DNA of 64,000 nt, from the NCBI RefSeq assembly GCF_024223415.1, contig NZ_CP100500.1. One strand, given 5' to 3'. The notes below the pieces were generated by a model. The model ran no database searches and was not told where the DNA came from. It worked only from the letters and a program-made list of their open reading frames with translations. Position 1 is the stretch's first letter. Every line of letters begins with the position of its first letter. This DNA is from Escherichia coli. Lineage in GTDB: Bacteria > Pseudomonadota > Gammaproteobacteria > Enterobacterales > Enterobacteriaceae. The position numbers and the translations under genes were made by a program. Below, piece after piece: positions 3,244-41,216 of this stretch.

Positions 3244-3356
3244 CACAGTGCATTTCTTCTCTGTTCATTGAAGGGTCCTCTGTGCAATGCAGACGACATA
3301 AGCGGGCAATAATAACACCAGTCCCGATTAAGTGGTCAACATTTCCAGTACCTTAC

Positions 3357-6017
3357 TCATGATTCCTCGCGTTGGGCAAGATTTAGCGTAAGCCCAACGA
3401 TCCCCTCTTCGAGCTGGATATCAACGTTAAACCCGAGCTTGCGGGCCAGCGCCACCATGCCACGATTATTTGGCATCGTAATACCATTCAGACGTTGTAG
3501 TCCGTGATCTCGCGTATAGGTAATCAACTTTTCCATTAAGCGTCGACCTAAGCCTAACCCTTTGAGATCCGAGCGAACCAGCACGGCAAATTCGGCATCG
3601 ATGTTATCAGGGTCGGAGATCGCACGCGTGACGCCGAGGATCTCTTCCGTTTGATCAATACGTCGTACCGCTACAAACGCCATTTCCCGATCGTAGTCGA
3701 TCTGCGTCATGTTGGCTAAATCTTCATGGGTAAATTCGTTGATCTCGCTAAAGTAGCGGTAATAAAGATCTTCTTTGGTGACTCGCGAAATGAATTGCTG
3801 AAGTTGTGGCTCATCTTCTGGCAAAATCGGGCGGAACAAGCAGCGTTCACCGTTTTTCAATTCTACCCATTCTTCCAGCTGATGCGGATAAGGGCGCACT
3901 GCCAGCCGACTCTCGTTATCGCCTTCAAACGGCGCGATATCCAGCGTGACATCCAGCGCGTTAAATTCACTGCCAGAAGCCAGCAAAGGATGAATATCCA
4001 GACGCTGAATTTCCGGGCAATCGACAATCAAGTTGGAAACCTGCACCAGAAGCTGGCTCAAGCCTGCAACATCCAATGGGCGTAGCGCACTGCGCGCACG
4101 AATCTTTTTACTTTTGATCCCCTGAATAACCAGATAGCGGGCCAGGTTCATATTCAGCGGCGGCAGTGCGACGACGGCTTGATCTTCAGGACGCCACTCC
4201 ACACCGCCTTCACCCAGCATGATCAACGGCCCAAAAACCGGATCGTGCTCAACCACAACCCGCAACTCCTGAGCGCCAGCACGGTTAGCCATACTTTGCA
4301 CCAACAGGCCGTGGACCCGCGCCTGCGGCCAGGTCATTTTTACGCGATCGAAAATAGCGTTTGCCGCTTGCTGGACTTCATTGGCTGTACGCAGGTACAG
4401 CATGACGCCCTGAACTTCCGATTTATGTGGAATATCCGGCGAACGCAATTTCAGCGCCACCGGATAACCAATCTGTTCGGCAATATGCACCGCTTCGGTG
4501 CTATCACTGGCAATCCAGGTAGGGAGCGTGTTCATGCCATACGCTTGCAGGATGGGCTGAACTTCATGGGTATCGAGCGACGTAGCCCCTTCGGCAATCG
4601 CCTGTTGCAACAGAAGATGCGCTTTTGCGGTATTGGAAGTCAGATTGCTGGGCAACGCCGGCGTTTCGCGTAGTTGCTTCTGATTACGCCGGTACTCCAC
4701 CATATGCATAAAAGCAGTGATGGTTCCTTCCGGGGTACGGTAGGTCGGCAGCCCGGCTTCGCTGAATAAACGTCGTGCCTCTTGCGAGGAGTGCTCGCCG
4801 CACCAGTTCGTCAGCAGAGAAACATACTTGCTGCGGGGATGATGCTTTACCGCTTCAATTAATGCTTGCGCACTTTCTGTTGCGGGAGCAGCGGCGCTGG
4901 GCGAATGAATAACCATCAGCGCATCAAAATCCTGGCTATGGAGCAGAATGTCCAGCGTTTTGACATAATGCTCGCTGCTGGCGTCATCGCGCAGATCGAG
5001 CGGGTTAGAGATTGCCACATGTCCTGGCAGTGCATCGCGCAGTTTCTGGCAGGTTTCTTCGCTTAGTGTTGCCAGCTTGCCATTGCGTGACCATAAGGCA
5101 TCCAGCGCCAGCGCGGCAGGCGCAGCACCGTTGCTGATAATCATCAACCGGTCGCCACGCAGCGGGCGCATATGGCTAAGGGTTTCTACCGCCGAAAACA
5201 GTTCGTGGGTGTCCTGTACCCGCAACAAACCGGCACGCTGAATAGCCGCATCCCATGCCGGGTCCATTCCTGCCGTCGTGTTGAGCAGTCGCTGTGCCGC
5301 CGGGCTACGTCCGCTTTTAATCACCAGAATCGGTTTATTACGCGAGGCACTACGGGCCGCCGAAACAAAGCGTCGCGCGTCGCTTAACTGTTCGAGATAG
5401 AGCAGGATGGCGCTGGTTTTACTGTCGCGTGCCAGATAGTCAAGCAATTCATCAACGTCGATATCCAGGCTGTCGCCGAGCGCAATAAAGTAGGAAAAGC
5501 CCATCTCACGTTGTTGCGCCCAGTCGAGGATGGTGTTGGAGACGGCAGCCGATTGTGAAATAAACGCCAGCTTGCCGCGTTTAATAGGTACCGGCGAAAA
5601 GCTGGCATTCAGACCTTGCCAGGGAGCCAGTAAACCCAGACTGTTTGGTCCAAGCAGGCGCATGTTATGGCGCAGGGCGCAGGCGCGGAGATCTTCGTGT
5701 TGCGATGCCGGGGCGGAAAGAATAATGCAGGTTTTACAGCCTTTCTCGCCGAGCTCTTCCAGAAGAGCAAGATTACGGCTGGCATTGGTACATAAAACCG
5801 CAAGGTCGGGTGTAAAGGGCAAGCTGGCAATATCCGGCCAGGCCAACACACCCAACACCGCTTTCCAGGCTGGCGTCACCGGGAGTACCGGTCCGTTAAA
5901 GCCTCCCGCCAGCAGGTTACGCATCATCAGGTAACCTGCGCGATTGGGTTTCATCGACGCGCCAATTACCGCTATCGATTTTGGTCGCAGTAGTGCTTCC
6001 AGTCCTCGCTGACTCAT
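3357..6017 (-). CDS. patZ: protein lysine acetyltransferase (CoA-ligase-like domains plus C-terminal GNAT)
   Basis: 886-aa ORF recognised as YfiQ/Pka/PatZ. N-terminal CoA-binding and ATP-grasp-like regions and a C-terminal GNAT motif (RSDLKGLGLGRRLMEKL). Confidence 0.95.
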   Translation of the reverse strand: MSQRGLEALLRPKSIAVIGASMKPNRAGYLMMRNLLAGGFNGPVLPVTPAWKAVLGVLAWPDIASLPFTPDLAVLCTNASRNLALLEELGEKGCKTCIILSAPASQHEDLRACALRHNMRLLGPNSLGLLAPWQGLNASFSPVPIKRGKLAFISQSAAVSNTILDWAQQREMGFSYFIALGDSLDIDVDELLDYLARDSKTSAILLYLEQLSDARRFVSAARSASRNKPILVIKSGRSPAAQRLLNTTAGMDPAWDAAIQRAGLLRVQDTHELFSAVETLSHMRPLRGDRLMIISNGAAPAALALDALWSRNGKLATLSEETCQKLRDALPGHVAISNPLDLRDDASSEHYVKTLDILLHSQDFDALMVIHSPSAAAPATESAQALIEAVKHHPRSKYVSLLTNWCGEHSSQEARRLFSEAGLPTYRTPEGTITAFMHMVEYRRNQKQLRETPALPSNLTSNTAKAHLLLQQAIAEGATSLDTHEVQPILQAYGMNTLPTWIASDSTEAVHIAEQIGYPVALKLRSPDIPHKSEVQGVMLYLRTANEVQQAANAIFDRVKMTWPQARVHGLLVQSMANRAGAQELRVVVEHDPVFGPLIMLGEGGVEWRPEDQAVVALPPLNMNLARYLVIQGIKSKKIRARSALRPLDVAGLSQLLVQVSNLIVDCPEIQRLDIHPLLASGSEFNALDVTLDIAPFEGDNESRLAVRPYPHQLEEWVELKNGERCLFRPILPEDEPQLQQFISRVTKEDLYYRYFSEINEFTHEDLANMTQIDYDREMAFVAVRRIDQTEEILGVTRAISDPDNIDAEFAVLVRSDLKGLGLGRRLMEKLITYTRDHGLQRLNGITMPNNRGMVALARKLGFNVDIQLEEGIVGLTLNLAQREES

Positions 6018-13029: not shown

Positions 13030-15383
<2,354 letters not shown>

Positions 15384-26141: not shown

Positions 26142-26346
26142 TTACCGTTAAATCATTTTAAAATCAGTAAGTTGTATCGAGTTTGTATGCTTTACTGTCA
26201 TTAACTTACTGTATGTTGATCCAGTGTATTTAACCTTGATAAACTCAGTCCAGCAACACAAAACCGCAACACATTGCATTTTGTCCCGTAGAAAAGACTT
26301 GTATGTGTGAGCTTGTTTTCTGCGCCTACGCAGATAAGGATTGAGA

Positions 26347-27744
26347 ATGCCGCGCACTGTAACACATAATCCGGATAGCCCCAATAATGACGATGTTTTA
26401 GCCGCTTCTGAAAAATGGGACGCCTGTAAACCCCCCTATACCAGCGCACACATGAAAATCTGTGTTGCTGCCGCCAAAATCATCCTCGCTGCTTCCGGCG
26501 TGGCTCGCCGTTCCAAATACGAAAAAGAGAACTATCTCCGTATCGATTTCAGCAAAGCCGGTAAGGTTACATTTTACGCCGAGTTTCCAAAAAAGATGGG
26601 CCTCAAAGGTAAAAAGCTCGGCGAGTGGCCGGAGCTCGCTATCCAGCTGGCGCGCGAAAAAGCACTAGGTATGGCTGACGGTGGACTGCGGGCAGAGTCC
26701 GTACATGCAGCGCTGGAAATGTACCGGGATGACCTCAAAGCCAAAGTAGCCCGTCAGAAGCTGAGCCCGGACAGTTTCACAACCTATGGGGTGCGTATCG
26801 ACCGGATTAAATCAACGTTCGGCGAGCGCGAGGTGTTCAGCGACGTAACATACAGTCGGCTGGTGGAAGTGCTGGACGAGTGGATCGCCACTCGCTCGAA
26901 CAATAACGCCCTGGAGTTGTTTGCCGAGCTCCGTCGGTTCTGGAAGTTCTGCGCACCTACTCTTTGCAACGGCCGCAATGTTGCCGCCAGTCTGCCAGAT
27001 GATTATGTTTCCTCCCGCGTACAGAAACCCACCCCCACACGGCTTTTTACCGATATTGAGTCAATCGCCCGGCTCTGGCTCAATGTTGCCGCCTGCACCT
27101 CTGTACACCAGAAGAATGCTGTTCGCTTCATGATCATCACCGGAGTTCGTCCGATTAATGTCCATAACCTGCGCTGGGACTACGTTCACGAGGAGGTTGG
27201 TGAAATTGTTTATCCGGAAGGGGTTATCGGCATGCGAGGGGCTATGAAAACACAAAAGGCTTTCCGCCTGCCGATAACGCCTGAGATCCGGCGGATTATC
27301 GACGAGCAGAAAGCCTGGCGTGATTCAGTTCCTGAGTGCAACAGGGATTATGTATTTTTGCAGCCACGTGATCCAATGCAGCCATTTTCAAAACGATCAC
27401 TGGATAAGCTGGTGAAAACATACAGCCCGGACGGGGCTGTAAAAGGAATAAAACATGATGGGACTGTTAAAGGGAAAGACGGTGCATTTAATACGATGTG
27501 CCGTAAATTCCTTAAGAGCAATGTTATTGCCTTGATGAAGGAAAGAGGCTATTCCCGATCAGACCGAAGGGAAATCAGCCTCCTTTGCCTTCACCACTCC
27601 AGCAAGTCAGATGACCCGATGGCAGAACATTACGACTTTTCTGATGAGATTTTACAGGAAGAGATTGCGTTAAAGCGCGAAGCTTTCGAGGCTCACGAGC
27701 GGAGCATACTTGCGCAGGTGGCATTGCTACGGCGGCGAGGTTAA
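26347..27744 (+). CDS. int: tyrosine integrase (P4-like, N-terminal arm-binding-type domain)
   Basis: ORF 26341..27744. ATG at 26347 after AAGGA (a later start at 26453 is possible). C-terminal catalytic region with R (HNLRWDY), LCLHHS and AEHY tyrosine. Confidence 0.85.
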   Translation: MPRTVTHNPDSPNNDDVLAASEKWDACKPPYTSAHMKICVAAAKIILAASGVARRSKYEKENYLRIDFSKAGKVTFYAEFPKKMGLKGKKLGEWPELAIQLAREKALGMADGGLRAESVHAALEMYRDDLKAKVARQKLSPDSFTTYGVRIDRIKSTFGEREVFSDVTYSRLVEVLDEWIATRSNNNALELFAELRRFWKFCAPTLCNGRNVAASLPDDYVSSRVQKPTPTRLFTDIESIARLWLNVAACTSVHQKNAVRFMIITGVRPINVHNLRWDYVHEEVGEIVYPEGVIGMRGAMKTQKAFRLPITPEIRRIIDEQKAWRDSVPECNRDYVFLQPRDPMQPFSKRSLDKLVKTYSPDGAVKGIKHDGTVKGKDGAFNTMCRKFLKSNVIALMKERGYSRSDRREISLLCLHHSSKSDDPMAEHYDFSDEILQEEIALKREAFEAHERSILAQVALLRRRG

Positions 27745-27941
27745 TACCGGCTGCGACACTTTTGAATAAAAGCGTCGACATTGCGGCGCTCATAACGAAC
27801 TACTTTTGCACTGAAACGAATTGGTGCCAGGATAGCCCGATGACGATGCTTAATATTCCACTCACATAGCGTTTTCTGTGTAATACCTAACTTTTGGCAT
27901 ACTTCATCCGGGGTGAGTAAATCGTCGGGTTTCTCGCTCAT
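27741..27941 (-). CDS. xis: excisionase/AlpA-like HTH protein
   Basis: The internal ATG of ORF 27741..28139 gives a 66-aa protein, MSEKPDDLLTPDEVCQKLGITQKTLCEW.... Its ATG overlaps the helicase TGA (ATGA). Confidence 0.7.
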   Translation of the reverse strand: MSEKPDDLLTPDEVCQKLGITQKTLCEWNIKHRHRAILAPIRFSAKVVRYERRNVDAFIQKCRSRY

Positions 27942-29332
27942 GCTATACCTCTCTTTTTCATGGCATCGAGCAGGATGTCCTGCACTGTTCGTTTTGAGTT
28001 GCGCCGCTCTATCACCATTTCGTCCATAGTGTCGGCGGCGATAATGTGGTGAATGAACACCGGGCGGTTGTGTCCGGCCTGAATCTGCCGGGTTGGCCCG
28101 ATGCGTTCGATAATTTGTTGGTACTGCTCCAGATTCCACCAGTGCGAGAAAAACACCAGTATGTTTCCGCCGTCCTGCATGTTCAGGCCGTGGCCCGCGC
28201 TGGCTGGGTGTGCAAAGAGAACAGGAATCTTTCCGGAATTCCAGTCGCGCAGTGTCTGTGGATCCTGGTCGAGGTGACGACCGCGAGGGAATGCTTTAAG
28301 CAAGCGTTCAAGATCGTGTTTCCAGTGATAAGCAACCAGCACAGGTGCGCCAGCTGCTTCGGTCAGTATGCTGTCCAGCGCTTGTAGTTTGGTGTCATGC
28401 AGTTCTGACCAACTTCCGGTGTCGTCTGTGTATACTGCGCCACTGGCGATTTGCAGACATTTCAGTGTCTTTGCCGCGGCGTTCGGTGCTTCGATGCCTT
28501 CGCCATTCAGCTCGAGGAACATTTCCTTTTCCATTTCACGATACTGCTGACGGGCCTTCGGCGGCATATCCACGCGGATTACGTTATGGATGGGGTCTTT
28601 GATATCGAACCAGTCGGCCGCATCCAGCGAGAGGGTCACATCGGCTAATGCTCGCTGTATTTCACCCTGTGAGTGAGCAAAAGGCTCCAGTTTAGTCCAG
28701 CTCTGTCCCGGAAACTGTATCGAGTTGAACCAGCGTGAGGTAAACGCACCGTAAGTGCGCCCGAGACGTTGCCCCTGGTCCACAAACCACGATTGTCCCC
28801 ACAAATCTACCAGGCCGTTCGGTGCTGGCGTACCGGTGAGATTTATCCAGCGCCGGACATACTTATGCGCCACTTTGCCCAGCGCCGCTGCGCGCTTACC
28901 ACCACCTCGCAGCCGGAAGGATTTTAGCCGGGTGCTTTCATCCGGAATGACAGTAACGAACGGCCATCGTTCTCCCAATTCCTCAACCAGCCAGACAAGG
29001 TTATCGTAGTTGATGGTGAACACGCTTGCGTTGCTGTTCGCCAGCGCTGCAGAGCGCGCTTTGGCGTTACCAACAATCGGCTGCACCTCAATATTACGCA
29101 GATGCCCCCATTTCAGCGCTTCATCCGGCCATGTGTTTGCTGCAACACGTAGCGGCGCGAGGACCAGCGCGGGGCGTGTTTCTGCCCCTGCCATAAAGAG
29201 ATCTTCCAGCGTAGTGAGCGTTGCCACGGTTTTACCCATCCCCATCCCTGCCCAGATGTTGCCGCGCAGGGTTTCGGTTTCGTGGTTGATGATGAGGTCC
29301 TGGTAAGGGCGAGGCGTGAAAATTTGTCCCAT
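27938..29332 (-). CDS. SNF2/DEAD-like phage helicase
   Basis: 464 aa with Walker A GMGKT, DEST(R) box, TGTPAPN motif III and C-terminal helicase motifs (GHGLNMQ..., QQIIERIGPTRQ). Confidence 0.85.
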   Translation of the reverse strand: MGQIFTPRPYQDLIINHETETLRGNIWAGMGMGKTVATLTTLEDLFMAGAETRPALVLAPLRVAANTWPDEALKWGHLRNIEVQPIVGNAKARSAALANSNASVFTINYDNLVWLVEELGERWPFVTVIPDESTRLKSFRLRGGGKRAAALGKVAHKYVRRWINLTGTPAPNGLVDLWGQSWFVDQGQRLGRTYGAFTSRWFNSIQFPGQSWTKLEPFAHSQGEIQRALADVTLSLDAADWFDIKDPIHNVIRVDMPPKARQQYREMEKEMFLELNGEGIEAPNAAAKTLKCLQIASGAVYTDDTGSWSELHDTKLQALDSILTEAAGAPVLVAYHWKHDLERLLKAFPRGRHLDQDPQTLRDWNSGKIPVLFAHPASAGHGLNMQDGGNILVFFSHWWNLEQYQQIIERIGPTRQIQAGHNRPVFIHHIIAADTMDEMVIERRNSKRTVQDILLDAMKKRGIA

Positions 29333-29376
29333 AGTATTTTAGCCAGTAGGGCGCGGGATAATCCCGCGCAAGAATG

Positions 29377-30099
29377 TCAGATTAGATCGGCGTAATAGGT
29401 GAAGTTGCCAAACTGCGGATGCCTCCAGCGCTTGCGGTTACCTTTCGGCGGTGTCGATTCGTTTAACAGCTTTTGAGCTGCTTGTTCGATCGCCGGAAGG
29501 TTAACGAGCAATCCCCGAACACCGGTGTCTGAACGTACCGGTATCCTGGCGAAGCCGATCAATTTCCGGCATGTTGAATCAGATAAACCTGTTTTCCATG
29601 CTGCTTTGCTGACGGGGACATATTCACCTTCAACATGAGATAAATTCGCTGGTGCGGCTGGTTGAGAATAGCCAGTTGCATCAAGACAGGCTTTCATTGT
29701 TGCTTCTGCTACGACGCGAGCAAGCTGGACGATGCCGTCGTTGATCGTAATGCTTGGCGCGGGCGCTGCTGATATTTGAACCTGCTCTTTTTCCCTTTCA
29801 AGTTCTTGCCAGCGGTCAACGATTTGTGCAGTGAATTCAGGACAGAGTTGAGCGACTACAACAATGCTATCGCGTCTGCCTTGTTCTCCTTCAAAGTTAT
29901 ATACTTCATCTTTGACTGTGTGGCCTAAGTTATTGATTCTTTCGATAAACGCCGTTGGCGGTTTTCGTATGATATCGCGCTCGACCAGTCTTTCGATGCT
30001 ACGTTTGACGTCACCCGGACGGCTACCTACCAGATCGGCAATCTCCTTATGGGTCATTGAAAGTTGCTTGGTATCGTTTATCAGTGTTAGAGTATTCAT
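29377..30099 (-). CDS. Rha-family phage regulatory protein (antirepressor-like)
   Basis: The N-terminus LSMTHKEIADLVGSRPGDVKRSIERL matches the Phage_pRha pattern. The C-terminal half is uncharacterised. Confidence 0.7.
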   Translation of the reverse strand: MNTLTLINDTKQLSMTHKEIADLVGSRPGDVKRSIERLVERDIIRKPPTAFIERINNLGHTVKDEVYNFEGEQGRRDSIVVVAQLCPEFTAQIVDRWQELEREKEQVQISAAPAPSITINDGIVQLARVVAEATMKACLDATGYSQPAAPANLSHVEGEYVPVSKAAWKTGLSDSTCRKLIGFARIPVRSDTGVRGLLVNLPAIEQAAQKLLNESTPPKGNRKRWRHPQFGNFTYYADLI

Positions 30100-30158
30100 G
30101 CTGTATTCTCCATTCAGTTAAAGACGCGCTGATAGTTACCGCTACCAGTGCGTTTTGT

Positions 30159-30335
30159 TTATTCATCCCACGGCTTGTTTGCAGCCTCCCTTGCGGCCTG
30201 CTGCGCAAAATAAATCAATTCAAAAGCTAACTGTTCTCCTTTTTCCAGCGAACTGAGAAGCCTTGCTGTTTCCAGCATGTCCGCGATATACCCGAAAATA
30301 TCTGCCTGATGTAACTGCGTGATCTTGATAGCCAT
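30159..30335 (-). CDS. hypothetical 58-aa protein
   Basis: The internal ATG at 30335 of ORF 30159..30416 is preceded by GAGG. First gene leftward from the Arc-type operators. Confidence 0.5.
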   Translation of the reverse strand: MAIKITQLHQADIFGYIADMLETARLLSSLEKGEQLAFELIYFAQQAAREAANKPWDE

Positions 30336-30374
30336 AGCGTTAACCTCGATGGAACCACTGCGGTCCATTTTAGT

Positions 30375-30413
30375 AAACCACCGTGGTTTATTGATGTCAA
30401 CACCACCGTGGTG
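30375..30413. promoter_or_regulatory. two palindromic operators sharing the core ACCACCGTGGT
   Basis: AAACCACCGTGGTTT (30375-30389) and CACCACCGTGGTG (30401-30413) lie in the 113-bp divergent intergenic region. Confidence 0.6.
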
Positions 30414-30448
30414 CATACTTTGAGAATCGAGTTTATGAGGTAGTTACT

Positions 30449-30763
30449 ATGAGTCGTGAAGATGCGCAGATGAAGATCCGTTTACCTGCGGAACTGAAAG
30501 AATTATTGGAGAATGCAGCCCGTGCTAACGGTCGTTCGTTGAATGCAGAGGTGCTTCAACGCTTAAGATCTTCATTTCCTGCAATAAATAAGCTGGAAAG
30601 CCAGAATACTCATGCGTTTTTATATCTACGACAAGCTGAAGGTATGGGGCTTGGACGCGAAGCTGAATCTTTGCTTAATGAGTGGGGCAAAAATATTGAA
30701 AAAAACACAGAACTCTTAGAAAGACTGCATGAACTCGTAGAAAATCGTTTGGGGAAAAAATAA
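30449..30763 (+). CDS. Arc/MetJ-type ribbon-helix-helix repressor with C-terminal extension
   Basis: MKIRLPAELKELLENAARANGRSLNAEVLQRL is a classic Arc-family RHH. GAGG RBS. Confidence 0.75.
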   Translation: MSREDAQMKIRLPAELKELLENAARANGRSLNAEVLQRLRSSFPAINKLESQNTHAFLYLRQAEGMGLGREAESLLNEWGKNIEKNTELLERLHELVENRLGKK

Positions 30764-30781
30764 TGTACCGTAACGAAATTG

Positions 30782-30922
30782 TTACTTAAGGTCTTTAGCT
30801 AGCCTGAATAATATTTCTGCATTTACTGAACGCATATTTTTCTTTGCTGTTTTCTTTAACTCCTCCGCTAATGCGCGGGGGATCCGTAATTTAAACTGTA
30901 AGTGCTCATCTGATTTTTTCAC
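30782..30922 (-). CDS. small Arc/Mnt-type RHH protein (46 aa)
   Basis: Not in the ORF track. The GTG at 30922 overlaps the VRR-NUC TGA (GTGA) and follows GGAGGGG. Translation: MKKSDEHLQFKLRIPRALAEELKKTAKKNMRSVNAEILFRLAKDLK. Confidence 0.65.
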   Translation of the reverse strand: MKKSDEHLQFKLRIPRALAEELKKTAKKNMRSVNAEILFRLAKDLK

Positions 30923-31188
30923 AATATCCCCTCCAGATTTTTGCTATCCAGCACCACCACGGTAAAGCCCAGTTTTCGCAGACGTTCATGTTCGCGCAAC
31001 TGGTCAGGTCGTGGTGGTTTGCCTGGCGCTTTGCATTCGACAAAGACGATGCGACCGCCGGGTAGCAGGACAATGCGATCCGGTACCGAGCGGCGACCGG
31101 GAGATACGAACTTAAAGGCCACACCGCCAGCTTTTTTCACTTCAGCGACGAGGTGCTTTTCGATAAGGCTTTCACGTTCACAGGCCAT
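30919..31188 (-). CDS. VRR-NUC domain nuclease
   Basis: 89 aa with PDRIVLLPGGRIVFVECK (D...ExK) and the downstream Q..E pattern typical of VRR-NUC. Confidence 0.8.
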   Translation of the reverse strand: MACERESLIEKHLVAEVKKAGGVAFKFVSPGRRSVPDRIVLLPGGRIVFVECKAPGKPPRPDQLREHERLRKLGFTVVVLDSKNLEGIL

Positions 31189-31399
31189 CGTCTGCCACCT
31201 TACGTTTTTCGCGTATGTTCTGCATCAGGCAAAAATCAGATCTGCGCTCACTCCATTCCTGATTGAGCGCGTTACGTGACTGGCGGTTGGCTTTGGCCCA
31301 GACCTTTGCTGCCCGATCGTACGCGCCGGACTGCTCAAGGCACAAAGCCTCCCGTGCAGTCTGGTAATAAAGTGGACTGTCCCGGTATTTAAATGACAT
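31178..31399 (-). CDS. PerC-family-like small regulator
   Basis: 73 aa. LEQSGAYDRAAKVWAKA...NQEWSERRSDFC resembles the PerC/Pch motif (A..LE..G.W.RAA..W......R.W...RR..C). From memory only. Confidence 0.4.
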   Translation of the reverse strand: MSFKYRDSPLYYQTAREALCLEQSGAYDRAAKVWAKANRQSRNALNQEWSERRSDFCLMQNIREKRKVADDGL

Positions 31400-31415
31400 A
31401 TATTTCGATTCCTGT

Positions 31416-31440
31416 AAAAAGCCCCTGACAGTGCAGGGGC
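31416..31440 (-). terminator. rho-independent terminator after the Bro-N gene
   Basis: gcccctg/caggggc stem followed by T5 on the minus strand. An identical copy lies at 35509-35535 after the AntA/KilAC gene. Confidence 0.7.
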
Positions 31441-31893
31441 GGGATTGATTTGAATTAACGAGGTAAGGCTGGTGGAATGTATTTGCCGATGCGGTCTTCT
31501 ATCGTTGGCAGAATACACATGCTGTCGTTAAAGCGATCGTGCAGTTTGTAGACCAGTTTCGAATCAGCCATTTCAAGCGCTGGCATTAACTGAGTCTGCC
31601 AGATTTCGTTGATGCGCCGGAAGTTATGACAGATCGCACGAAGATTATTAATGAACATTTCCTTCTCTGCGTCAGTGACTTCTGTTTGTGTTTTCTGAAT
31701 ACGCTTTGTGCTGCCGTTCCGGTAAAAGCGTTCCTGCGCAGCGACAGCCTCATCCACAGTCGGATAACAGCCAACGTATACGTTTTTCTCGCCGTCCCAT
31801 GCATAAGCCCGGTACGGATTGTATTTGCTCCGGTGATGGTAAATCATCTTCGGCAGACATTCCCTGTGCGGCGCCAGTATCGTGGAGGACTGC
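31416..31893. repeat. ~480-bp direct repeat, copy A (terminator plus 3' half of the Bro-N gene)
   Basis: Aligns colinearly with 35509-35987, roughly nine in ten bases identical by eye. Confidence 0.9.
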
Positions 31894-32231
31894 GGAACGG
31901 CGGTATCTTTCTCGATAAGGTCAAGCACCCAGCGACGAAATTCTTTGGCTACCGGAGTCGTTGCGAATATTGCTACCAGGTGGGCACCGCGCAGGGAGAA
32001 AACTCGCACATCTTTTTCACGTAAGCTATTGTTTATTCCGTTGAACCTCATTTTGAGGTTGATTGACATACCCGGGGTAAACTCATCTGCGTTGCGGTTG
32101 TATATCTGGGTGATTTTATCGCCGCGCGAATACCCCAGCGCAGTAGCCAGCGTTGCGGCGGTGAACCACTGCCTGCCGTTGTGTTCGGTAGTTTCGAGAA
32201 CGTGAGATTTGAATACGAGTTGGGTACTCAT
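31455..32231 (-). CDS. Bro-N domain protein with AP2-like C-terminal module
   Basis: ATG at 32231 (AAAGGA RBS). N-terminus FKSHVLETTEHNGRQWFTAATLATALGY is Bro-N. C-terminus YRAYAWDGEKNVYVGCYPTVDEAVAAQERFYRNG is AP2-like and shared with the 35547 gene. Confidence 0.75.
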   Translation of the reverse strand: MSTQLVFKSHVLETTEHNGRQWFTAATLATALGYSRGDKITQIYNRNADEFTPGMSINLKMRFNGINNSLREKDVRVFSLRGAHLVAIFATTPVAKEFRRWVLDLIEKDTAVPQSSTILAPHRECLPKMIYHHRSKYNPYRAYAWDGEKNVYVGCYPTVDEAVAAQERFYRNGSTKRIQKTQTEVTDAEKEMFINNLRAICHNFRRINEIWQTQLMPALEMADSKLVYKLHDRFNDSMCILPTIEDRIGKYIPPALPR

Positions 32232-32446
32232 AGTTTTATGTCCTTTGCAATATTTTGAATTCACCCCTTTTGAGAGGGCGGTCAGGCGCTCAAAACCGTG
32301 CAAAGTCGGCGGGCGTATTTCCCTTACGGGTATTGTATTAGCCTCACGCCCGACCATTGAATTCTCAATATCGTGGACATAAAAAATCCGCATGTCTGTC
32401 GGGTGCGGTTTCCGCTTTGCAAGGTGTTTTGAGCACCATGACGCGG

Positions 32447-32476
32447 AATATAGCCCCGTTAACGCGACATTGTCAA
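32447..32476 (-). promoter_or_regulatory. sigma-70-like promoter for the Bro-N gene
   Basis: Minus strand TTGACA, 18 nt, TATATT, about 215 nt upstream of the ATG. Confidence 0.5.
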
Positions 32477-32498
32477 ACTGAAGAATTTTACGGATAGC

Positions 32499-32533
32499 AA
32501 AAACCCCCGAACTGGTGAGGAACAGGGGTTTTT
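32499..32533. terminator. hairpin terminator downstream of the TIR-like gene; near-copy of the host acpS terminator
   Basis: aaaaacccccgaactggtgaggaacaggggttttt compared with host aaaacccccgaactggtaaggaacgggggtttt (25203-25235). Confidence 0.6.
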
Positions 32534-32613: not shown

Positions 32614-33357
32614 TTAAGATGAAGCGTTCGCTATCTGAGCGTCGCTGAATGTGAAACCCGCCTGTTTAAGACGCTGGATTAAGCGGGGTACTGTCTCCCG
32701 AACATGGTCATTAAAGTTGAGATAAAGAATACCGGCGGCATCAGAAGGCTGCTCAAGGTGTTGTTTCTGCAGGATGACCACGTTACTGCGACCGAGTGAA
32801 GATAACAGCATCCCCATTTCTAAAACTACGTTTTGGCGTGCCCTGGGCTGGGCTGCTTCCTGGCCGTCTCTTTTGGCGTATCCCACATCATCGGGAGTGA
32901 GGAGAACAATGCCGAAACGCGTCGCTGTCCGTCCCTGACCAATTTCACGTTCAAGCTCTTCAATTATCGTAAGCCCGGTCCCACCGGTATTCTGCAAAAT
33001 AAAATGGTCAGGTAATCCAAGCTTATGAAGAATAAGTTCAAGCTGCTCTTTTGCTACATGATCGTGACCGTGAACGATGAAAATCTTTTTTGCTGGTTCT
33101 TGCATCATGACTGGAGCGTTACCCAGGTGTTCATTAATAATGGCTTCAACCTCAGGTTTTGCCGCTTGTGAACCCTGAATCAAAATCGTTCCGGTGTGGT
33201 AAAGCGTTATGATGGCACCATTACTTAAACGATAACAATCATGACCGGTTTTGTTTTCTTCTCCGGTAACATCAAATCCGGATTCGACTAAAAATTGACG
33301 AAAAGTATCGACAGCGTATGGGTATTTGAGTGCCATTTCATTGAGTTCCTGCATCAT
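32614..33357 (-). CDS. TIR-like domain protein (Cap12/PycTIR-type TIR_like) with TBP-fold-like N-terminal domain
   Basis: 247 aa. C-terminal KIFIVHGHD...IVLLTPDDVG...ARQNVVLEMGMLLSSLGR...PSDAAGILY matches the TIR-like family, including the conserved Glu. N-terminal NGAIITLYHTGTILIQGSQ resembles the RNase HIII N-domain. Confidence 0.7.
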   Translation of the reverse strand: MMQELNEMALKYPYAVDTFRQFLVESGFDVTGEENKTGHDCYRLSNGAIITLYHTGTILIQGSQAAKPEVEAIINEHLGNAPVMMQEPAKKIFIVHGHDHVAKEQLELILHKLGLPDHFILQNTGGTGLTIIEELEREIGQGRTATRFGIVLLTPDDVGYAKRDGQEAAQPRARQNVVLEMGMLLSSLGRSNVVILQKQHLEQPSDAAGILYLNFNDHVRETVPRLIQRLKQAGFTFSDAQIANASS

Positions 33358-35508: not shown

Positions 35509-35987
35509 AAAAGCCCCTGACAGTGCAGGGGCGGGATTGATTTGAATTAACGAGGTAAGGCTGGTGGAATGTATCTGCCGATGCGGTCTTCTATGGTCGG
35601 CAGAATGCACATGCTGTCGCTGAAGCGGTCATGCAACTGGTAAACCAGTTTAGAATCCATTTTTTCGAGAGCAGGCATTAACTGCGCCCGCCAGATTTCG
35701 TTGATGCGCCGGAAGTTATGACAGACGGCGCGGAGATTGTTGATGAACATTTCCTTCTCTGCGTCAGTGACTTCTGTCTGTGTTTTCTGAATACGCTTTG
35801 TGCTGCCATTCCGATAGAAGCGTTCCTGAGCAGCAACAGCCTCATCCACGGTTGGATAGCACCCTACGTAAACGCTCTTCTCTCCGTTCCATGCGTAGGC
35901 TCTGTACGGGTTGTATTTGCTCCGGTGATGGTAAACCATCTTCGGCAGACACTCCCTGTGTGGCGCCAGTATCGTGGAGGATTGCTG
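35509..35987. repeat. ~480-bp direct repeat, copy B (terminator plus 3' half of the AntA/KilAC gene)
   Basis: Colinear with 31416-31893. Includes an identical terminator hairpin at 35509-35535. Confidence 0.9.
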
Positions 35988-36308
35988 GTGCAGTTTGCGT
36001 TCGCACTCGATGAAGTATCGGCGGATCTGGCGGCCTTTTTCGTTGCGCTCCACCATCGCCAGTTCTTTGGCCGTGTCGAGGGTGAGGTGGTAGTCCTTAC
36101 AAAGAACATTTTTACGCTTTCCAGTTTTGGAAAACGTTACGATATAATCCTGATTTTCAACGAATTCATAGTCTGCAATTCGTGATGTAATCCACGCTGC
36201 AAACACTTTCCCTACCCCAAGGAATGCGTGCAGATCGCGAGCATTGCAGAGCAGGGTGGTTTCGTTGGCGATAGCGCCGTTGAAAACGGGGATGAGTTGA
36301 GTTGCCAT
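35547..36308 (-). CDS. AntA/KilAC-type antirepressor-like protein with AP2-like C-terminal module
   Basis: ATG at 36308 after GAGGT. N-terminus NARDLHAFLGVGKVFAAWITSRI...LTLDTAKELAMVERNEKGRQIRRYFIECE is ANT/KilAC-like. The C-terminal ~150 aa are shared with the Bro-N protein. Confidence 0.7.
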   Translation of the reverse strand: MATQLIPVFNGAIANETTLLCNARDLHAFLGVGKVFAAWITSRIADYEFVENQDYIVTFSKTGKRKNVLCKDYHLTLDTAKELAMVERNEKGRQIRRYFIECERKLHQQSSTILAPHRECLPKMVYHHRSKYNPYRAYAWNGEKSVYVGCYPTVDEAVAAQERFYRNGSTKRIQKTQTEVTDAEKEMFINNLRAVCHNFRRINEIWRAQLMPALEKMDSKLVYQLHDRFSDSMCILPTIEDRIGRYIPPALPR

Positions 36309-36470
36309 CACAGTTACCTCTAACGGTGAAATTCACCGCCACCACTGAGTTGCAAATCTCATATGGGTGGCGAACTGACGAGGTTTGCAATACCGGCGTT
36401 AGAGGAAACCGGCGCGCCGAAGCGCCCCCGCCAGCCCGCCATAATGCGAACGTGGCAAAGCTTGCGACAA

Positions 36471-40266: not shown

Positions 40267-40890
40267 TTATCTTTTGCGGCGGTAAATACGATGTTCAATC
40301 ATGACCCCTACGATCTGTAAGGGGACATCTGCACTTCGTAGCACGGGATAGTCGGGATTCAGGGGGACCAGTTCAAAATCATCAACGCCGATACCCAACG
40401 GGCGGTATTTTTTGAAAGTGGCCTCATACCCGTTGTTCTTTGCAACGACGAATTCGCCAGGCATGGGGCATAAATCCGGGTCAATTATTACAATATCGCC
40501 TTCCTTAAACTCCGGTTGCATACTGTCACCATCTATCCGCAGGGCGAAGCAGGACTCAGGTACGTCGGAATCCGCGAGAACGTATTCCATATTTCCATCC
40601 ATGTCCGTAGCGTCTTTTGCTTCCGTTAGCGCACCGGCCTGTACGTAACTGAGGATCGGGATGCGGCGGGTACTTATTTCCGCCAGGGGCATTATATTCC
40701 TGCCATTTAAAAGCCAGTCGGGACTGCATTTCAGTGCCTTTGAAAGCTCTATGATGTTGCGGGGCTTCCGGGTCTTTCCGCTTTCAATAGTCTCAATGGA
40801 TTGCTGGCTGACCCCCGCGATTGCTGCAACTTCTGTTTGTGTCATCCCGAGTTCTGTACGGCGTGCTTTAAAGCGTTCTGCAAGTGACAT
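40267..40890 (-). CDS. cI: CI-like repressor (HTH_XRE plus S24 LexA-like peptidase)
   Basis: ATG at 40890 after GGGGG. N-terminal HTH (LGMTQTEVAAIAGVSQQSIETIESG). C-terminal GDSM serine and FKK lysine. Confidence 0.9.
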   Translation of the reverse strand: MSLAERFKARRTELGMTQTEVAAIAGVSQQSIETIESGKTRKPRNIIELSKALKCSPDWLLNGRNIMPLAEISTRRIPILSYVQAGALTEAKDATDMDGNMEYVLADSDVPESCFALRIDGDSMQPEFKEGDIVIIDPDLCPMPGEFVVAKNNGYEATFKKYRPLGIGVDDFELVPLNPDYPVLRSADVPLQIVGVMIEHRIYRRKR

Positions 40891-40928
40891 GGTGTACCCC
40901 CTGATTCCTGATTTTTTGCTCTCCCTTA

Positions 40929-40990
40929 TTAATACAATTTTTGTTGTAGTTGACAAACATCATTTATTGTCGCTAAATACCACATAAATT
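40929..40990. promoter_or_regulatory. divergent cI/cro promoter-operator region
   Basis: Plus strand: TTGACA (40950-40955), 18 nt, TAAATA (40974-40979). Minus strand: TTGTCA, 16 nt, TATTAA. Palindromes TACAAnnnnnnTTGTA and GACAA..TTGTC, plus an AAATACCACATA site. Confidence 0.55.
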
Positions 40991-41006
40991 GTAGGAGACA
41001 ATAATC

Positions 41007-41216
41007 ATGACACTTGCTACCCGAGTAAAAAACCAGCGTAAGGCTCTTGGCCTGACGCAGGTTATGCTGGCAGAACGCACAGGGATTAGCCAGCAGGCCA
41101 TTAACCGCATTGAAAGCGGCCTTATATCCCGTCCCCGTTATCTGCTGGAAATAGCTGTTGCCCTGAACTGCGACCCTAACTGGCTGTTGCATGGTACTCC
41201 CGCGGATAAGACGTAA
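41007..41216 (+). CDS. cro: Cro-like HTH_XRE repressor
   Basis: 69 aa, LGLTQVMLAERTGISQQAINRIESG. Divergent from cI. Confidence 0.85.
   Translation: MTLATRVKNQRKALGLTQVMLAERTGISQQAINRIESGLISRPRYLLEIAVALNCDPNWLLHGTPADKT

What the first reader, a model, noticed from the sequence alone, without database searches (positions are those of the whole stretch)
30159..30922. immI-like secondary immunity region: two Arc/Mnt-type RHH genes, paired palindromic operators and a downstream Rha antirepressor-type gene
A 104-aa Arc-type RHH protein (30449..30763, plus strand) is transcribed divergently from a 58-aa ORF followed by a Rha-family gene (29377..30099). The 113-bp divergent region holds two palindromes with the same core, AAACCACCGTGGTTT and CACCACCGTGGTG. 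These are the expected form of Arc/Mnt operators. Converging on the Arc-like gene is a second RHH gene of 46 aa (30782..30922). It is missing from the ORF track and is translationally coupled (GTGA) to the VRR-NUC gene. The layout parallels the P22 immI region (mnt, arc, ant). Here it sits inside a replication operon, and the long Arc protein has an extra ~55-aa C-terminal domain of unknown role. An RHH antitoxin-like function for a neighbouring toxin cannot be excluded.
Basis: partly seen in the sequence, partly recalled or inferred. Interest (0 to 1): 0.5.

Follow-up and report, generated by a model that had tools for sequence, protein, structure and literature searches.

The report
Mnt/Arc-type prophage regulatory switch cassette
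An E. coli prophage carries a small self-contained switch, related to the second immunity region of phage P22, in which two ribbon-helix-helix repressors that read the same DNA word sit around three copies of that word and control a small operon of unknown function; the wiring is well supported, but a role in countering the main repressor is unproven.

Summary
Both small genes (104 aa, 30449-30763 +; 46 aa, 30782-30922 -) pass Pfam's Arc cut-off. The 113-bp divergent region holds three copies of ACCACnGTGGT, not two: two exact and one with a mismatch. These are the only such sites in the 64 kb apart from one 1-mismatch match at 14941-14951, outside the prophage. Each exact site lies in the spacer of one of two back-to-back promoters that I read by hand.

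Comparative data are the main support. In 29 related loci, the operator word changes together with the DNA-reading beta-strand residues of both repressors. Unrelated beta-proteobacterial prophages with the same reading head carry the same word in the same place. The P22 Mnt operator shares the 9-bp core CCACnGTGG.

The long protein is Mnt-like: its RHH is 53.5% identical to Mnt, and it has a non-homologous helical tail that is swapped between phages. The short one is Arc-like.

It differs from P22 immI in three ways:
- Both repressors share one reading head.
- The short gene has moved to the far side, convergent with the long one and coupled to the early operon.
- The controlled genes (a 58-aa protein and a Rha-like protein) are unrelated to P22 Ant.

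Antirepressor function is only inferred. A toxin-antitoxin reading is unlikely. I rate it a new variant of a known kind, of moderate interest.

The parts
30449..30763 (+). arc1: long (104 aa) Mnt-like RHH repressor. N-terminal RHH is residues 1-43, with reading head Q7-K9-R11. The helical tail is residues 55-102.
   Evidence: Pfam Arc 46.6 bits. phmmer against PDB: Mnt 3.8e-5, Arc 1e-4. 53.5% identity to Mnt of P22-like phages over 43 aa. AF2 model: helices 14-27, 31-42, 55-65 and 69-102, the last at pLDDT about 90. Foldseek top hit is the Arc-operator complex 1par. dN/dS 0.08-0.18.
30782..30922 (-). arc2: short (46 aa) Arc-like RHH with reading head Q9-K11-R13. Its GTG start overlaps the VRR-NUC stop (GTGA). 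It converges on arc1 with 18 bp between the stop codons.
   Evidence: Pfam Arc 39.2 bits. Annotated as 'Arc family DNA-binding protein' in E. coli relatives. dN/dS 0.06-0.13. In L016/L017 it follows SNF2 instead of VRR-NUC.
30401..30413 (.). O1: operator CACCACCGTGGTG, lying in the 17-nt spacer of the arc1 promoter.
   Evidence: Exact ACCACCGTGGT at 30402-30412. The same offset (-12 from the TTGACA hexamer) is kept in all 11 distinct intergenic regions.
30375..30389 (.). O2: operator AAACCACCGTGGTTT, lying in the 17-nt spacer of the leftward promoter.
   Evidence: Exact ACCACCGTGGT at 30377-30387. Offset +12 or +13 in all 11 distinct intergenic regions (+13 in every type-A region and Serratia, +12 in the E. 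coli type-B regions).
30354..30364 (.). O3: degenerate operator ACCACTGCGGT, at the predicted start site and 5' leader of the 58-aa gene.
   Evidence: One-mismatch copy. It is a perfect palindrome at the equivalent place in the other type-A loci.
30391..30419 (+). Predicted arc1 promoter: TTGATG (30391-30396), 17 nt, CATACT (30414-30419).
   Evidence: Read by hand. It falls below the threshold of the consensus scan. Relatives have TTGATG or TTGCTG, 17 nt, then CATAAT at the same place.
30372..30400 (-). Predicted leftward promoter: TTGACA (30400-30395), 17 nt, TGgTTTACT (-10 hexamer at 30377-30372).
   Evidence: Read by hand, not called by the scan. TTGACA/TTGACT is conserved in all 11 distinct intergenic regions, and the TTTACT -10 in the type-A regions.
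30159..30335 (-). 58-aa acidic, probably helical protein (helicity judged from the sequence, not modelled); first gene of the controlled operon; function unknown.
   Evidence: No hit in Pfam, NCBIfam or PADLOC, and only a marginal PHROG match. Only 11 clusters at 50% identity among 1.84 billion proteins. A homologous domain is fused to the C-terminus of a Bro-N protein, P0182. dN/dS 0.07-0.15.
29377..30099 (-). Rha-like two-domain DNA-binding protein (240 aa); second gene of the controlled operon.
   Evidence: PHROG 63 'anti-repressor Ant' 2.5e-21 on residues 3-109. Pfam Rha is sub-threshold, but homologues carry PF09669. The C-terminal half is shared with KilA-N and Bro-N proteins. AF2: N-terminal winged helix plus a C-terminal strand-helix-helix-strand-strand-helix domain. 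No similarity to P22 Ant.
27741..29332 (-). Downstream genes in the same orientation, with no predicted terminator in between across the stretch scanned (29300-31500): SNF2 helicase (27938-29332) and an excisionase-like HTH_17 gene (27741-27944). They probably also receive leftward transcription.
   Evidence: Pfam. No terminator-like site on the minus strand between 30335 and 29300, the end of the scanned stretch; the region 27741-29300 was not scanned.
30919..31188 (-). VRR-NUC nuclease gene; last replication-operon gene before arc2, coupled to it by GTGA.
   Evidence: PHROG 93 7.6e-32, Pfam VRR_NUC.

Best explanation
This is a portable four-gene regulatory cassette, arc2 >< arc1 | O1-O2-O3 | 58aa-rha, of the P22 immI (Mnt/Arc) kind. 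It sits inside the early-left replication operon of an E. coli prophage integrated next to yfhL.

Shown or strongly supported:
- Both RHH proteins belong to the Arc/Mnt family.
- Both carry the same DNA-contacting beta-strand residues, Q-x-K-x-R.
- Three copies of the palindrome ACCACnGTGGT lie in the divergent region, at conserved positions relative to conserved promoter hexamers.
- The palindrome, arc1 and arc2 are exchanged between phages as one specificity block.

Inferred:
- Arc1 is made from its own promoter. It oligomerises through its helical tail, as Mnt does through its own tail, and occupies the operators.
- O2 (promoter spacer) and O3 (start site) shut the leftward promoter that drives the 58-aa gene and the Rha-like gene, and probably SNF2 and xis downstream.
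- O1, in the spacer of the arc1 promoter, gives autoregulation.
- Arc2 has no tail and is translated from the CI-controlled early operon. After infection or induction it binds the same sites, as P22 Arc shuts down both Pant and Pmnt.
- Early-operon transcription also runs antisense through arc1, because the two arc genes converge with no terminator between them. The state of the primary (CI/Cro) switch would thus be passed to this second switch.

Most speculative: the products of the controlled operon, the 58-aa protein and the Rha-like protein, act together on a DNA-bound regulator or on DNA itself (an antirepressor-like or regulatory role).
For: RHH identity.

Operators unique and clustered.

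Fixed positions in 11 distinct intergenic regions, with flanks that diverge.

Covariation:
- Q-K-R heads go with ACCACnGTGGT. All 14 loci with this head have exact sites, and they lie only in that intergenic region.
- None of the 13 Q-R-R loci has them. Those carry CTCAC.GTGAG or CTCAnnnTGAG instead.
- An E-R-R head in Roseomonas goes with TCCACACGGTGTGGA.

Independent lineages with the same head and the same word: Variovorax, Comamonas, Paraburkholderia and Xenorhabdus.

The P22 Mnt operator GGTCCACGGTGGACC shares the core CCACnGTGG.

Mosaic breakpoints:
- Type-B E. coli prophages lose similarity exactly over 30347-30905, which is the operators plus arc1 plus arc2.
- A type-A relative loses only 30501-30800, the Arc1 tail.

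The cassette moves as a unit relative to SNF2 in L016/L017.

The canonical immI order, long Arc | short Arc then Rha or Bro-N, is found in Variovorax and Comamonas.

The Arc1 tail is predicted as a 34-residue helix at pLDDT about 90.

No terminator lies between the convergent arc genes.

A primary CI (S24) / Cro region lies at 40267-41216.

The 58-aa domain is fused to a Bro-N protein.

P22 immI biology is taken from PMC8022706 and PMC11016777.
Against: - No binding, transcript or phenotype data exist for this cassette.
- Both promoters are read by hand and fall below the scan's threshold. The leftward -10 hexamer lacks the usual A at position 2.
- The covariation rests on few independent switches of reading head (Q-K-R, Q-R-R, E-R-R).
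- The Arc1 tail has no sequence similarity to the Mnt tetramerisation domain, with no PF11423 hit. Its oligomeric state is not modelled.
- The Rha-like protein is unrelated to P22 Ant, and both of its predicted domains look DNA-binding. A protein-sequestering antirepressor is therefore not the obvious reading.
- A terminator-like hairpin at 31440-31421 lies upstream of arc2 in the early operon, so arc2 expression from the CI-controlled promoter is not assured.
Confidence: 0.6

Rival explanations
1. The switch wiring is the same, but the purpose is different. The cassette guards a CI-independent promoter that reads into SNF2 and the excisionase-like gene. On this view Arc1 is a second maintenance repressor that prevents untimely excision or replication functions. 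The 58-aa and Rha-like proteins would be accessory DNA-binding factors, not antirepressors.
For: The cassette is upstream of the xis-like gene in the window and in E. coli relatives, including L016/L017 where it lies after SNF2 and directly before xis. No terminator is predicted between the 58-aa gene and 29300, the end of the scanned stretch. The C-terminal domain of the Rha-like protein gives weak Foldseek matches to Xis, RacA and MerR-type winged helices.
Against: tblastn with the window's xis-like protein found no match in the Serratia (L003) and L019 loci, where the sequence held extends only about 1.2 kb and 0.2 kb beyond SNF2. The Foldseek matches all have E above 0.3. Read-through from the early operon would express xis anyway.
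Confidence: 0.2
2. It is a repressor-controlled accessory (moron-like) module. The 58-aa and Rha-like proteins would act against other phages or other resident prophages (exclusion or defence), and the RHH pair would merely set their expression level.
For: The cassette is optional among related prophages: 18 of 5426 complete E. coli genomes carry it, while 151 match the neighbouring VRR-NUC region. It sits near a candidate defence gene, a TIR protein matching PADLOC PDC-S35 at 1e-106. P22 Ant itself inhibits superinfecting phage (PMC11016777).
Against: No PADLOC model matches the 58-aa, Rha-like or RHH proteins. A promoter with operators in its spacer and over its start site is built to be tightly off, which is unusual for a defence gene expressed from a prophage.
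Confidence: 0.1
3. It is a type II toxin-antitoxin system in which one RHH protein is the antitoxin of a neighbouring toxin (the VRR-NUC nuclease, the 58-aa protein or the Rha-like protein).
For: RHH domains are common in antitoxins. There are weak Pfam similarities to FitA, TacA and HicB-type RHH models and Foldseek matches to AtaR and TacA at E above 0.5. arc2 is translationally coupled to a nuclease gene.
Against: arc1 is monocistronic and converges on arc2. arc2 follows SNF2 instead of VRR-NUC in L016/L017, so it is not tied to the nuclease. The best matches of both RHH proteins are Arc and Mnt repressors. No toxin family or PADLOC model hits any neighbour. The 58-aa protein is acidic, has no membrane segment, and is transcribed divergently from arc1.
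Confidence: 0.03
4. The long RHH protein is a ParG-like centromere-binding partition protein, and the repeats are a centromere.
For: PHROGs 795 and 2685 are labelled 'partition protein ATPase'.
Against: The same label is attached to P22 mnt itself in RefSeq and PHROG-based annotations, so it is a propagated misannotation. No ParA/ParF ATPase gene is adjacent. The element is an integrated prophage with an integrase.
Confidence: 0.01

Closest known systems
P22 immI region (mnt, arc, ant, sar)
   Same: - A long RHH repressor with an extra C-terminal tail (Mnt-like; 53.5% identity in the RHH) is transcribed divergently from a small operon through overlapping promoters.
- A short Arc-type RHH is a second repressor.
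- The operator core CCACnGTGG is identical to that of Omnt.
- An operator lies over the start site of the controlled promoter.
- The cassette is embedded in a larger operon.
- A RecA-cleavable primary repressor is encoded elsewhere in the prophage.
   Different: - There are three copies of one operator word, instead of one Oarc plus one Omnt.
- Both repressors share one reading head (Q-K-R), whereas Arc has Q-N-R and Mnt has H-N-R.
- The short arc is not the first gene of the controlled operon. It lies beyond arc1, convergent with it and coupled to the early operon.
- The controlled genes (58-aa and Rha-like) are unrelated to Ant (P22_AR_N / P22_AR_C).
- The Arc1 tail is not homologous to the Mnt tetramerisation domain.
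- No sar-like RNA was found.
- The host phage is not P22-like: its replication module has PolA, DUF2800, Enc34-type SSB, SNF2 and VRR-NUC.
Lambda OR switch (CI / Cro)
   Same: By analogy only. Two repressors recognise the same set of three operators between divergent promoters. One is long and has an oligomerisation domain. The other is a small dimer made from the lytic early transcript.
   Different: The fold is different (RHH, not HTH). The small repressor is not encoded next to the operators. Differential site affinity is not known here.
Bro-N / KilA-N / Rha domain-shuffled phage DNA-binding proteins (often annotated 'antirepressor')
   Same: The Rha-like protein has an N-terminal winged helix of the Rha type. 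Its C-terminal half occurs behind KilA-N or Bro-N domains in other proteins. In Serratia and Xenorhabdus relatives the same slot holds a Bro-N protein. The 58-aa domain is found fused to a Bro-N protein.
   Different: For most members of this group, including this one, no function has been tested. The 'antirepressor' label comes from annotation habit.

Membership tests
Arc/Mnt ribbon-helix-helix repressors (Pfam PF03869) | Sequence match to the Arc domain above the curated cut-off | tested here: met
   Arc1 46.6 bits and Arc2 39.2 bits against a cut-off of 20.4. PDB phmmer hits to Arc and Mnt.
Arc/Mnt ribbon-helix-helix repressors (Pfam PF03869) | N-terminal beta-strand with alternating outward residues, followed by two helices and the conserved R-x-P and N-x-R-[ST]-x-[NT]-[AS]-E motifs | tested here: met
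   Alignment with P22 Arc and Mnt. AF2 helices 14-27 and 31-42. Foldseek top hits are Arc-operator complexes.
Arc/Mnt ribbon-helix-helix repressors (Pfam PF03869) | Sequence-specific binding to a palindromic operator | not testable with these tools
   Only indirect evidence: the operator word covaries with the reading head over 29 loci.
Mnt proper | RHH close to Mnt, and an operator of the Omnt type | tested here: met
   53.5% identity over 43 aa. Omnt GGTCCACGGTGGACC against AAACCACCGTGGTTT: the 9-bp core CCACnGTGG is identical.
Mnt proper | C-terminal Mnt tetramerisation domain (Pfam PF11423) | tested here: not met
   P22 Mnt hits PF11423 at 1.5e-20. Arc1 gives no hit. Its tail is a different predicted helix and is replaced by unrelated tails in relatives.
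P22-type immI region | Long RHH gene divergent from the controlled operon through overlapping promoters that carry the operators | tested here: inconclusive
   The gene arrangement and operators are met. The promoters are read by hand and not called by the scan.
P22-type immI region | Short arc gene as the first gene of the controlled operon | tested here: not met
   The first gene is the 58-aa ORF, and arc2 lies beyond arc1. The feature is met in the Variovorax and Comamonas relatives.
P22-type immI region | An ant gene homologous to P22 Ant (P22_AR_N / P22_AR_C) | tested here: not met
   BLASTP E = 2.9. The Pfam domains of Ant are absent.
P22-type immI region | Antirepressor activity against the primary repressor | not testable with these tools
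The primary CI-like repressor is at 40267-40956.
P22-type immI region | Small antisense RNA (sar) within the controlled operon | tested here: inconclusive
   No relevant Rfam match at E up to 1 in 27500-32500. I did not check whether sar has an Rfam model.
Rha family (Pfam PF09669) | Match to Phage_pRha above the curated cut-off | tested here: inconclusive
   15.2 bits against 29.9 for this protein. Full-length homologues at 40-67% identity carry PF09669. PHROG 63 hits at 2.5e-21.
Type II toxin-antitoxin (RHH antitoxin) | Co-transcribed toxin gene next to the RHH gene | tested here: not met
   arc1 is monocistronic. The upstream partner of arc2 varies, being VRR-NUC or SNF2. There are no toxin or PADLOC hits.

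The most novel reading that the evidence does not exclude
The cassette would be an RHH-built equivalent of the lambda CI/Cro switch. A tailed, oligomerising repressor (Arc1) and a tail-less one (Arc2) carry the same reading head and compete for three graded operators between back-to-back promoters. Arc2 has been moved into the CI-controlled early operon, convergent with arc1 and with no terminator between them. The primary immunity state would then be relayed to a second bistable switch in two ways: by Arc2 protein and by transcriptional collision or antisense RNA. Specificity (head plus operators) and oligomerisation (tail) evolve as separately exchangeable blocks. The output, a split Bro-N/Rha-type protein pair (58-aa plus Rha-like), would be a new type of antirepressor or excision regulator.
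Probability: 0.25. Interest if true: 0.6.

Novelty: new variant of a known kind. Interest (0 to 1): 0.42.

Why it matters
P22 immI is the textbook case of a second immunity region, and it is usually treated as a peculiarity of P22-like phages. This work shows that Mnt/Arc-type cassettes with the Mnt operator core occur in unrelated prophages of Enterobacterales and beta-proteobacteria. In those cassettes, Rha or Bro-N proteins take the place of Ant.

In one phage family the cassette has been rewired. The short repressor reads the same sites as the long one and is fed from the primary early operon.

The system offers a compact, natural set of matched reading-head and operator pairs (Q-K-R, Q-R-R, E-R-R) with swappable tails. 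That is useful for studying RHH specificity and for building synthetic switches. It also gives a testable entry point to the function of the very common but untested 'antirepressor-like' Rha and Bro-N proteins.

The practical stakes are modest. The cassette is rare in E. coli (18 of 5426 complete genomes), and both RHH genes are already annotated as Arc-family proteins.

Tried and rejected
- **58-aa protein as a cryptic RHH.** The idea came from its position, where beta-proteobacterial relatives have the short arc, and from a strand-helix-helix-like pattern in its sequence. hhalign of its family profile against an Arc profile gave 0.1% probability, and a profile search of PDB found nothing.
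- **58-aa protein and P22 orf59a.** P22 orf59a is also 58 aa and lies next to mnt, but there is no alignment between the two.
- **Rha-like protein as a homologue of P22 Ant.** Rejected.
- **LexA control.** The only CTG...CAG element near the rha start has the wrong spacing (CTG-N11-CAG, read), so there is no sign of SOS control.
- **Bidirectional terminator between arc1 and arc2.** There is only a 5-bp stem, and the fold z-scores are -1.2 and -0.15. None was called by the scan.
- **Further operator copies elsewhere in the prophage.** None were found.
- **Deposited phage genomes.** None encodes the 58-aa protein. Nucleotide matches are limited to the VRR-NUC gene of three E. coli phages.
- **Literature searches.** Searches on Rha as an antirepressor, and for this phage family, found nothing specific.
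- **Partition-protein label.** Rejected as a propagated misannotation.
Full report
**Setting.**
- The left 25 kb of the window is E. coli chromosome. The rnc-era-recO-pdxJ-acpS stretch is 100% identical to sequenced strains.
- A prophage starts at the integrase gene (26341-27744 +), next to yfhL as in related E. coli prophages, and runs to the end of the window.
- Its primary immunity region is a CI-like S24/HTH repressor (40267-40956 -) divergent from a Cro-like gene (41007-41216 +).
- Leftward from CI runs a long operon of replication and accessory genes: DUF2800 nuclease, Enc34-type SSB, AntA, PolA, a TIR protein, Bro-N, a PerC/ANR-like protein and VRR-NUC. Beyond the feature studied here come SNF2 helicase and an excisionase-like gene.
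- The finding sits between VRR-NUC and SNF2.

**Observation.**
- Both RHH ORFs pass Pfam's curated Arc threshold: Arc1 46.6 bits and Arc2 39.2 bits, against a cut-off of 20.4.
- The arc2 GTG overlaps the VRR-NUC TGA and has a GGAGG upstream.
- The divergent region is 113 bp. It contains AAACCACCGTGGTTT (30375-30389) and CACCACCGTGGTG (30401-30413).
- The exact core occurs nowhere else in the 64 kb.
- The 58-aa ORF, arc2 and the arc1 RHH are all under purifying selection, with dN/dS of 0.06-0.18 at near-saturated synonymous divergence. All three are real genes.

**Promoters (my reading, not a tool call).**
- Rightward: TTGATG (30391-96), 17 nt, CATACT (30414-19).
- Leftward, on the other strand: TTGACA (30400-30395), 17 nt, TGgTTTACT.
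- The two -35 hexamers overlap back to back.
- O1 fills the spacer of the arc1 promoter. O2 fills the spacer of the leftward promoter. O3 covers the predicted leftward start site.
- The consensus scan did not call either promoter.
- Even so, TTGACA/TTGACT, the CATAAT-type hexamer and the three operator positions (-12, +12 or +13, and +36 to +44 from TTGACA) recur in all 11 distinct versions of this intergenic region, while the sequence between them diverges.

**Comparative evidence that the palindromes are the operators of both proteins.** I collected 29 related loci: E. coli genomes, IMG/VR contigs, Serratia, Xenorhabdus, Variovorax, Comamonas, Paraburkholderia, Roseomonas and P22.
- In the window, Arc1 reads Q7-K9-R11 and Arc2 reads Q9-K11-R13. 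These positions align with Arc Q9/N11/R13, the residues known to contact DNA in the Arc-operator crystal structure 1par (alignment; the assignment of contact residues is from my own knowledge).
- Every locus whose long Arc has the Q-K-R head has two or three exact ACCACnGTGGT sites, and they lie only in that intergenic region (14 loci).
- None of the 13 loci whose two RHH proteins both read Q-R-R (PQLRVRIP) has them. Those carry CTCACnGTGAG or CTCAnnnTGAG at the same positions.
- A Roseomonas homologue with an E-R-R head has TCCACACGGTGTGGA.
- Prophages in Variovorax, Comamonas and Paraburkholderia are unrelated to the E. coli phage, yet their Q-K-R long Arc goes with the same word in two or three copies.
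- The annotated P22 Mnt operator, GGTCCACGGTGGACC, shares the 9-bp core CCACnGTGG, and Arc1's RHH is 53.5% identical to Mnt.
- By analogy with Mnt, one 15-bp palindrome is probably one tetramer site, with an RHH dimer on each arm. This is inference.

**Modularity.**
- Only 18 of 5426 complete E. coli genomes carry the cassette.
- Type-B prophages are 93-97% identical to the window up to 30346. They lose all similarity over 30347-30905 and regain it at the arc2 / VRR-NUC junction.
- That block is exactly the operators plus arc1 plus arc2, which is the signature of an immunity-specificity unit.
- A type-A relative (VL40) differs only over 30501-30800, the Arc1 tail.
- At least six unrelated tails follow the same RHH in different loci.
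- The window's tail is predicted as a 34-residue helix (residues 69-102, pLDDT about 90) after a short helix and a low-confidence linker. By my own reading it has a heptad-like pattern.
- The tail does not match the Mnt tetramerisation domain PF11423. It is therefore analogous to the Mnt tail, not homologous.
- The whole four-gene unit lies after SNF2 in L016/L017, instead of before it. It therefore moves as a cassette, and arc2 is not tied to VRR-NUC.

**Relation to immI.**
- In Variovorax and Comamonas the order is canonical: long Arc | short Arc, then Rha or Bro-N. The Comamonas short Arc also reads Q-K-R.
- The E. coli, Serratia and Xenorhabdus phage family has a rearranged form. The short arc lies on the far side of the long arc, convergent with it. 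The stop codons range from 18 bp apart to 32 bp overlapping, and no terminator lies between them.
- In this rearranged form the 58-aa gene takes the first place in the controlled operon.

**The controlled genes.**
- The 58-aa protein belongs to a very small family: 11 clusters at 50% identity among 1.84 billion proteins, and it is absent from 50,697 deposited phage genomes.
- It has no family assignment.
- Its one informative relative is P0182, in which a homologous segment forms the C-terminus of a Bro-N + AP2-like protein (E = 4e-5). This links it functionally to the Bro-N/Rha group.
- The gene after it is Rha-like in the window and in E. coli, Bro-N in Serratia and Xenorhabdus, and something else in L019.
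- The window's Rha-like protein has an N-terminal winged helix: PHROG 63 at 2.5e-21, Pfam Rha sub-threshold, and homologues that carry PF09669.
- Its C-terminal half is shared with KilA-N and Bro-N proteins and is predicted as a second small winged-helix-like domain.
- It is unrelated to P22 Ant. 'Antirepressor' is therefore an annotation label, not a result.

**Mechanism proposed.**
- Arc1 is made from its own promoter. It oligomerises through its tail and occupies O2 and O3 to silence the leftward promoter. It occupies O1 to limit its own synthesis.
- Arc2 is made from the early operon after infection or induction and binds the same sites.
- Early-operon transcription also collides with, and runs antisense to, arc1.
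- What is shown: protein families, operator identity by covariation, architecture and modular exchange.
- What is inferred: promoter activity, oligomeric states, the direction of regulation, and any effect of the 58-aa and Rha-like proteins on CI, excision or other phages.
- A terminator-like hairpin at 31440-31421 upstream of arc2 is a caveat for the link to the CI-controlled promoter.

**Rivals.**
- An excision or replication guard (the same wiring with a different output) is the most serious rival.
- A defence or exclusion module is possible but has no specific support.
- A toxin-antitoxin pair and a partition system are unlikely, for the reasons given in the rival entries.

**Verdict.** It is a new variant of a known kind (Mnt/Arc-controlled cassette), with moderate interest.

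Noticed in passing
window 32272-32355 (-): A full-length match to Rfam RF02221 sRNA-Xcc1 (79.8 bits, gathering score 53, E = 4e-14). It lies inside the first ~40 codons of the longest Bro-N ORF (31455-32393). The Bro-N domain starts only at about residue 57, and a 48-aa PHROG labelled 'anti-repressor' matches just residues 1-46. The real Bro-N start is therefore probably near 32231, and the 5' part is an RNA element that some annotations translate.
   Followed up: partly
window 32614-33357 (-): A 247-aa protein with a CAP12/Pycsar-type TIR domain (Pfam 5.6e-31) matches the PADLOC candidate defence family PDC-S35 at 8.9e-107. It sits inside the early-left replication operon between PolA and Bro-N. 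A homologue occupies the same place in E. coli HY220605 and in L018.
   Followed up: no
window 31421-31440 (-): A strong intrinsic-terminator-like hairpin (7 pairs, 6 G-C, followed by TTTTT) lies between the Bro-N gene and the PerC/ANR-like gene, in the middle of the leftward operon. It suggests either antitermination or that Bro-N is an inserted module with its own terminator.
   Followed up: no
window 31178-31399 (-): A 73-aa protein of the ANR (AraC negative regulator) / PerC-like family (NCBIfam 1.9e-18) overlaps the VRR-NUC start. This is a further small regulator in the same operon.
   Followed up: no
window 40267-41216: The primary immunity region: a CI-like repressor with HTH_3 and Peptidase_S24 domains (so probably RecA-cleavable), divergent from a 69-aa Cro-like HTH gene, followed by a primase/helicase-type AAA_25 protein.
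   Followed up: partly
L023 (P22) 4520-4771; one search hit table; PHROGs 795/2685: P22 mnt and its homologues are labelled 'partition protein ATPase' in RefSeq records and in PHROG-based annotation. This is a propagated misannotation, and it also attaches to the RHH genes studied here.
   Followed up: yes
L016 and L017, about 2907-4500: In two IMG/VR prophages, the whole arc2-arc1-58aa-rha cassette lies after SNF2 and directly before xis, instead of between VRR-NUC and SNF2. The sequence just upstream of arc2 there resembles the sequence just upstream of xis in the window, which suggests recombination at a shared junction.
   Followed up: partly
window 31455-32393 and 35547-36311: The Bro-N protein and the AntA protein of this prophage appear to share a C-terminal domain. 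Both match the same stretch of locus L012 at about 80% identity. This is another case of domain shuffling among 'antirepressor-like' genes within one phage.
   Followed up: no
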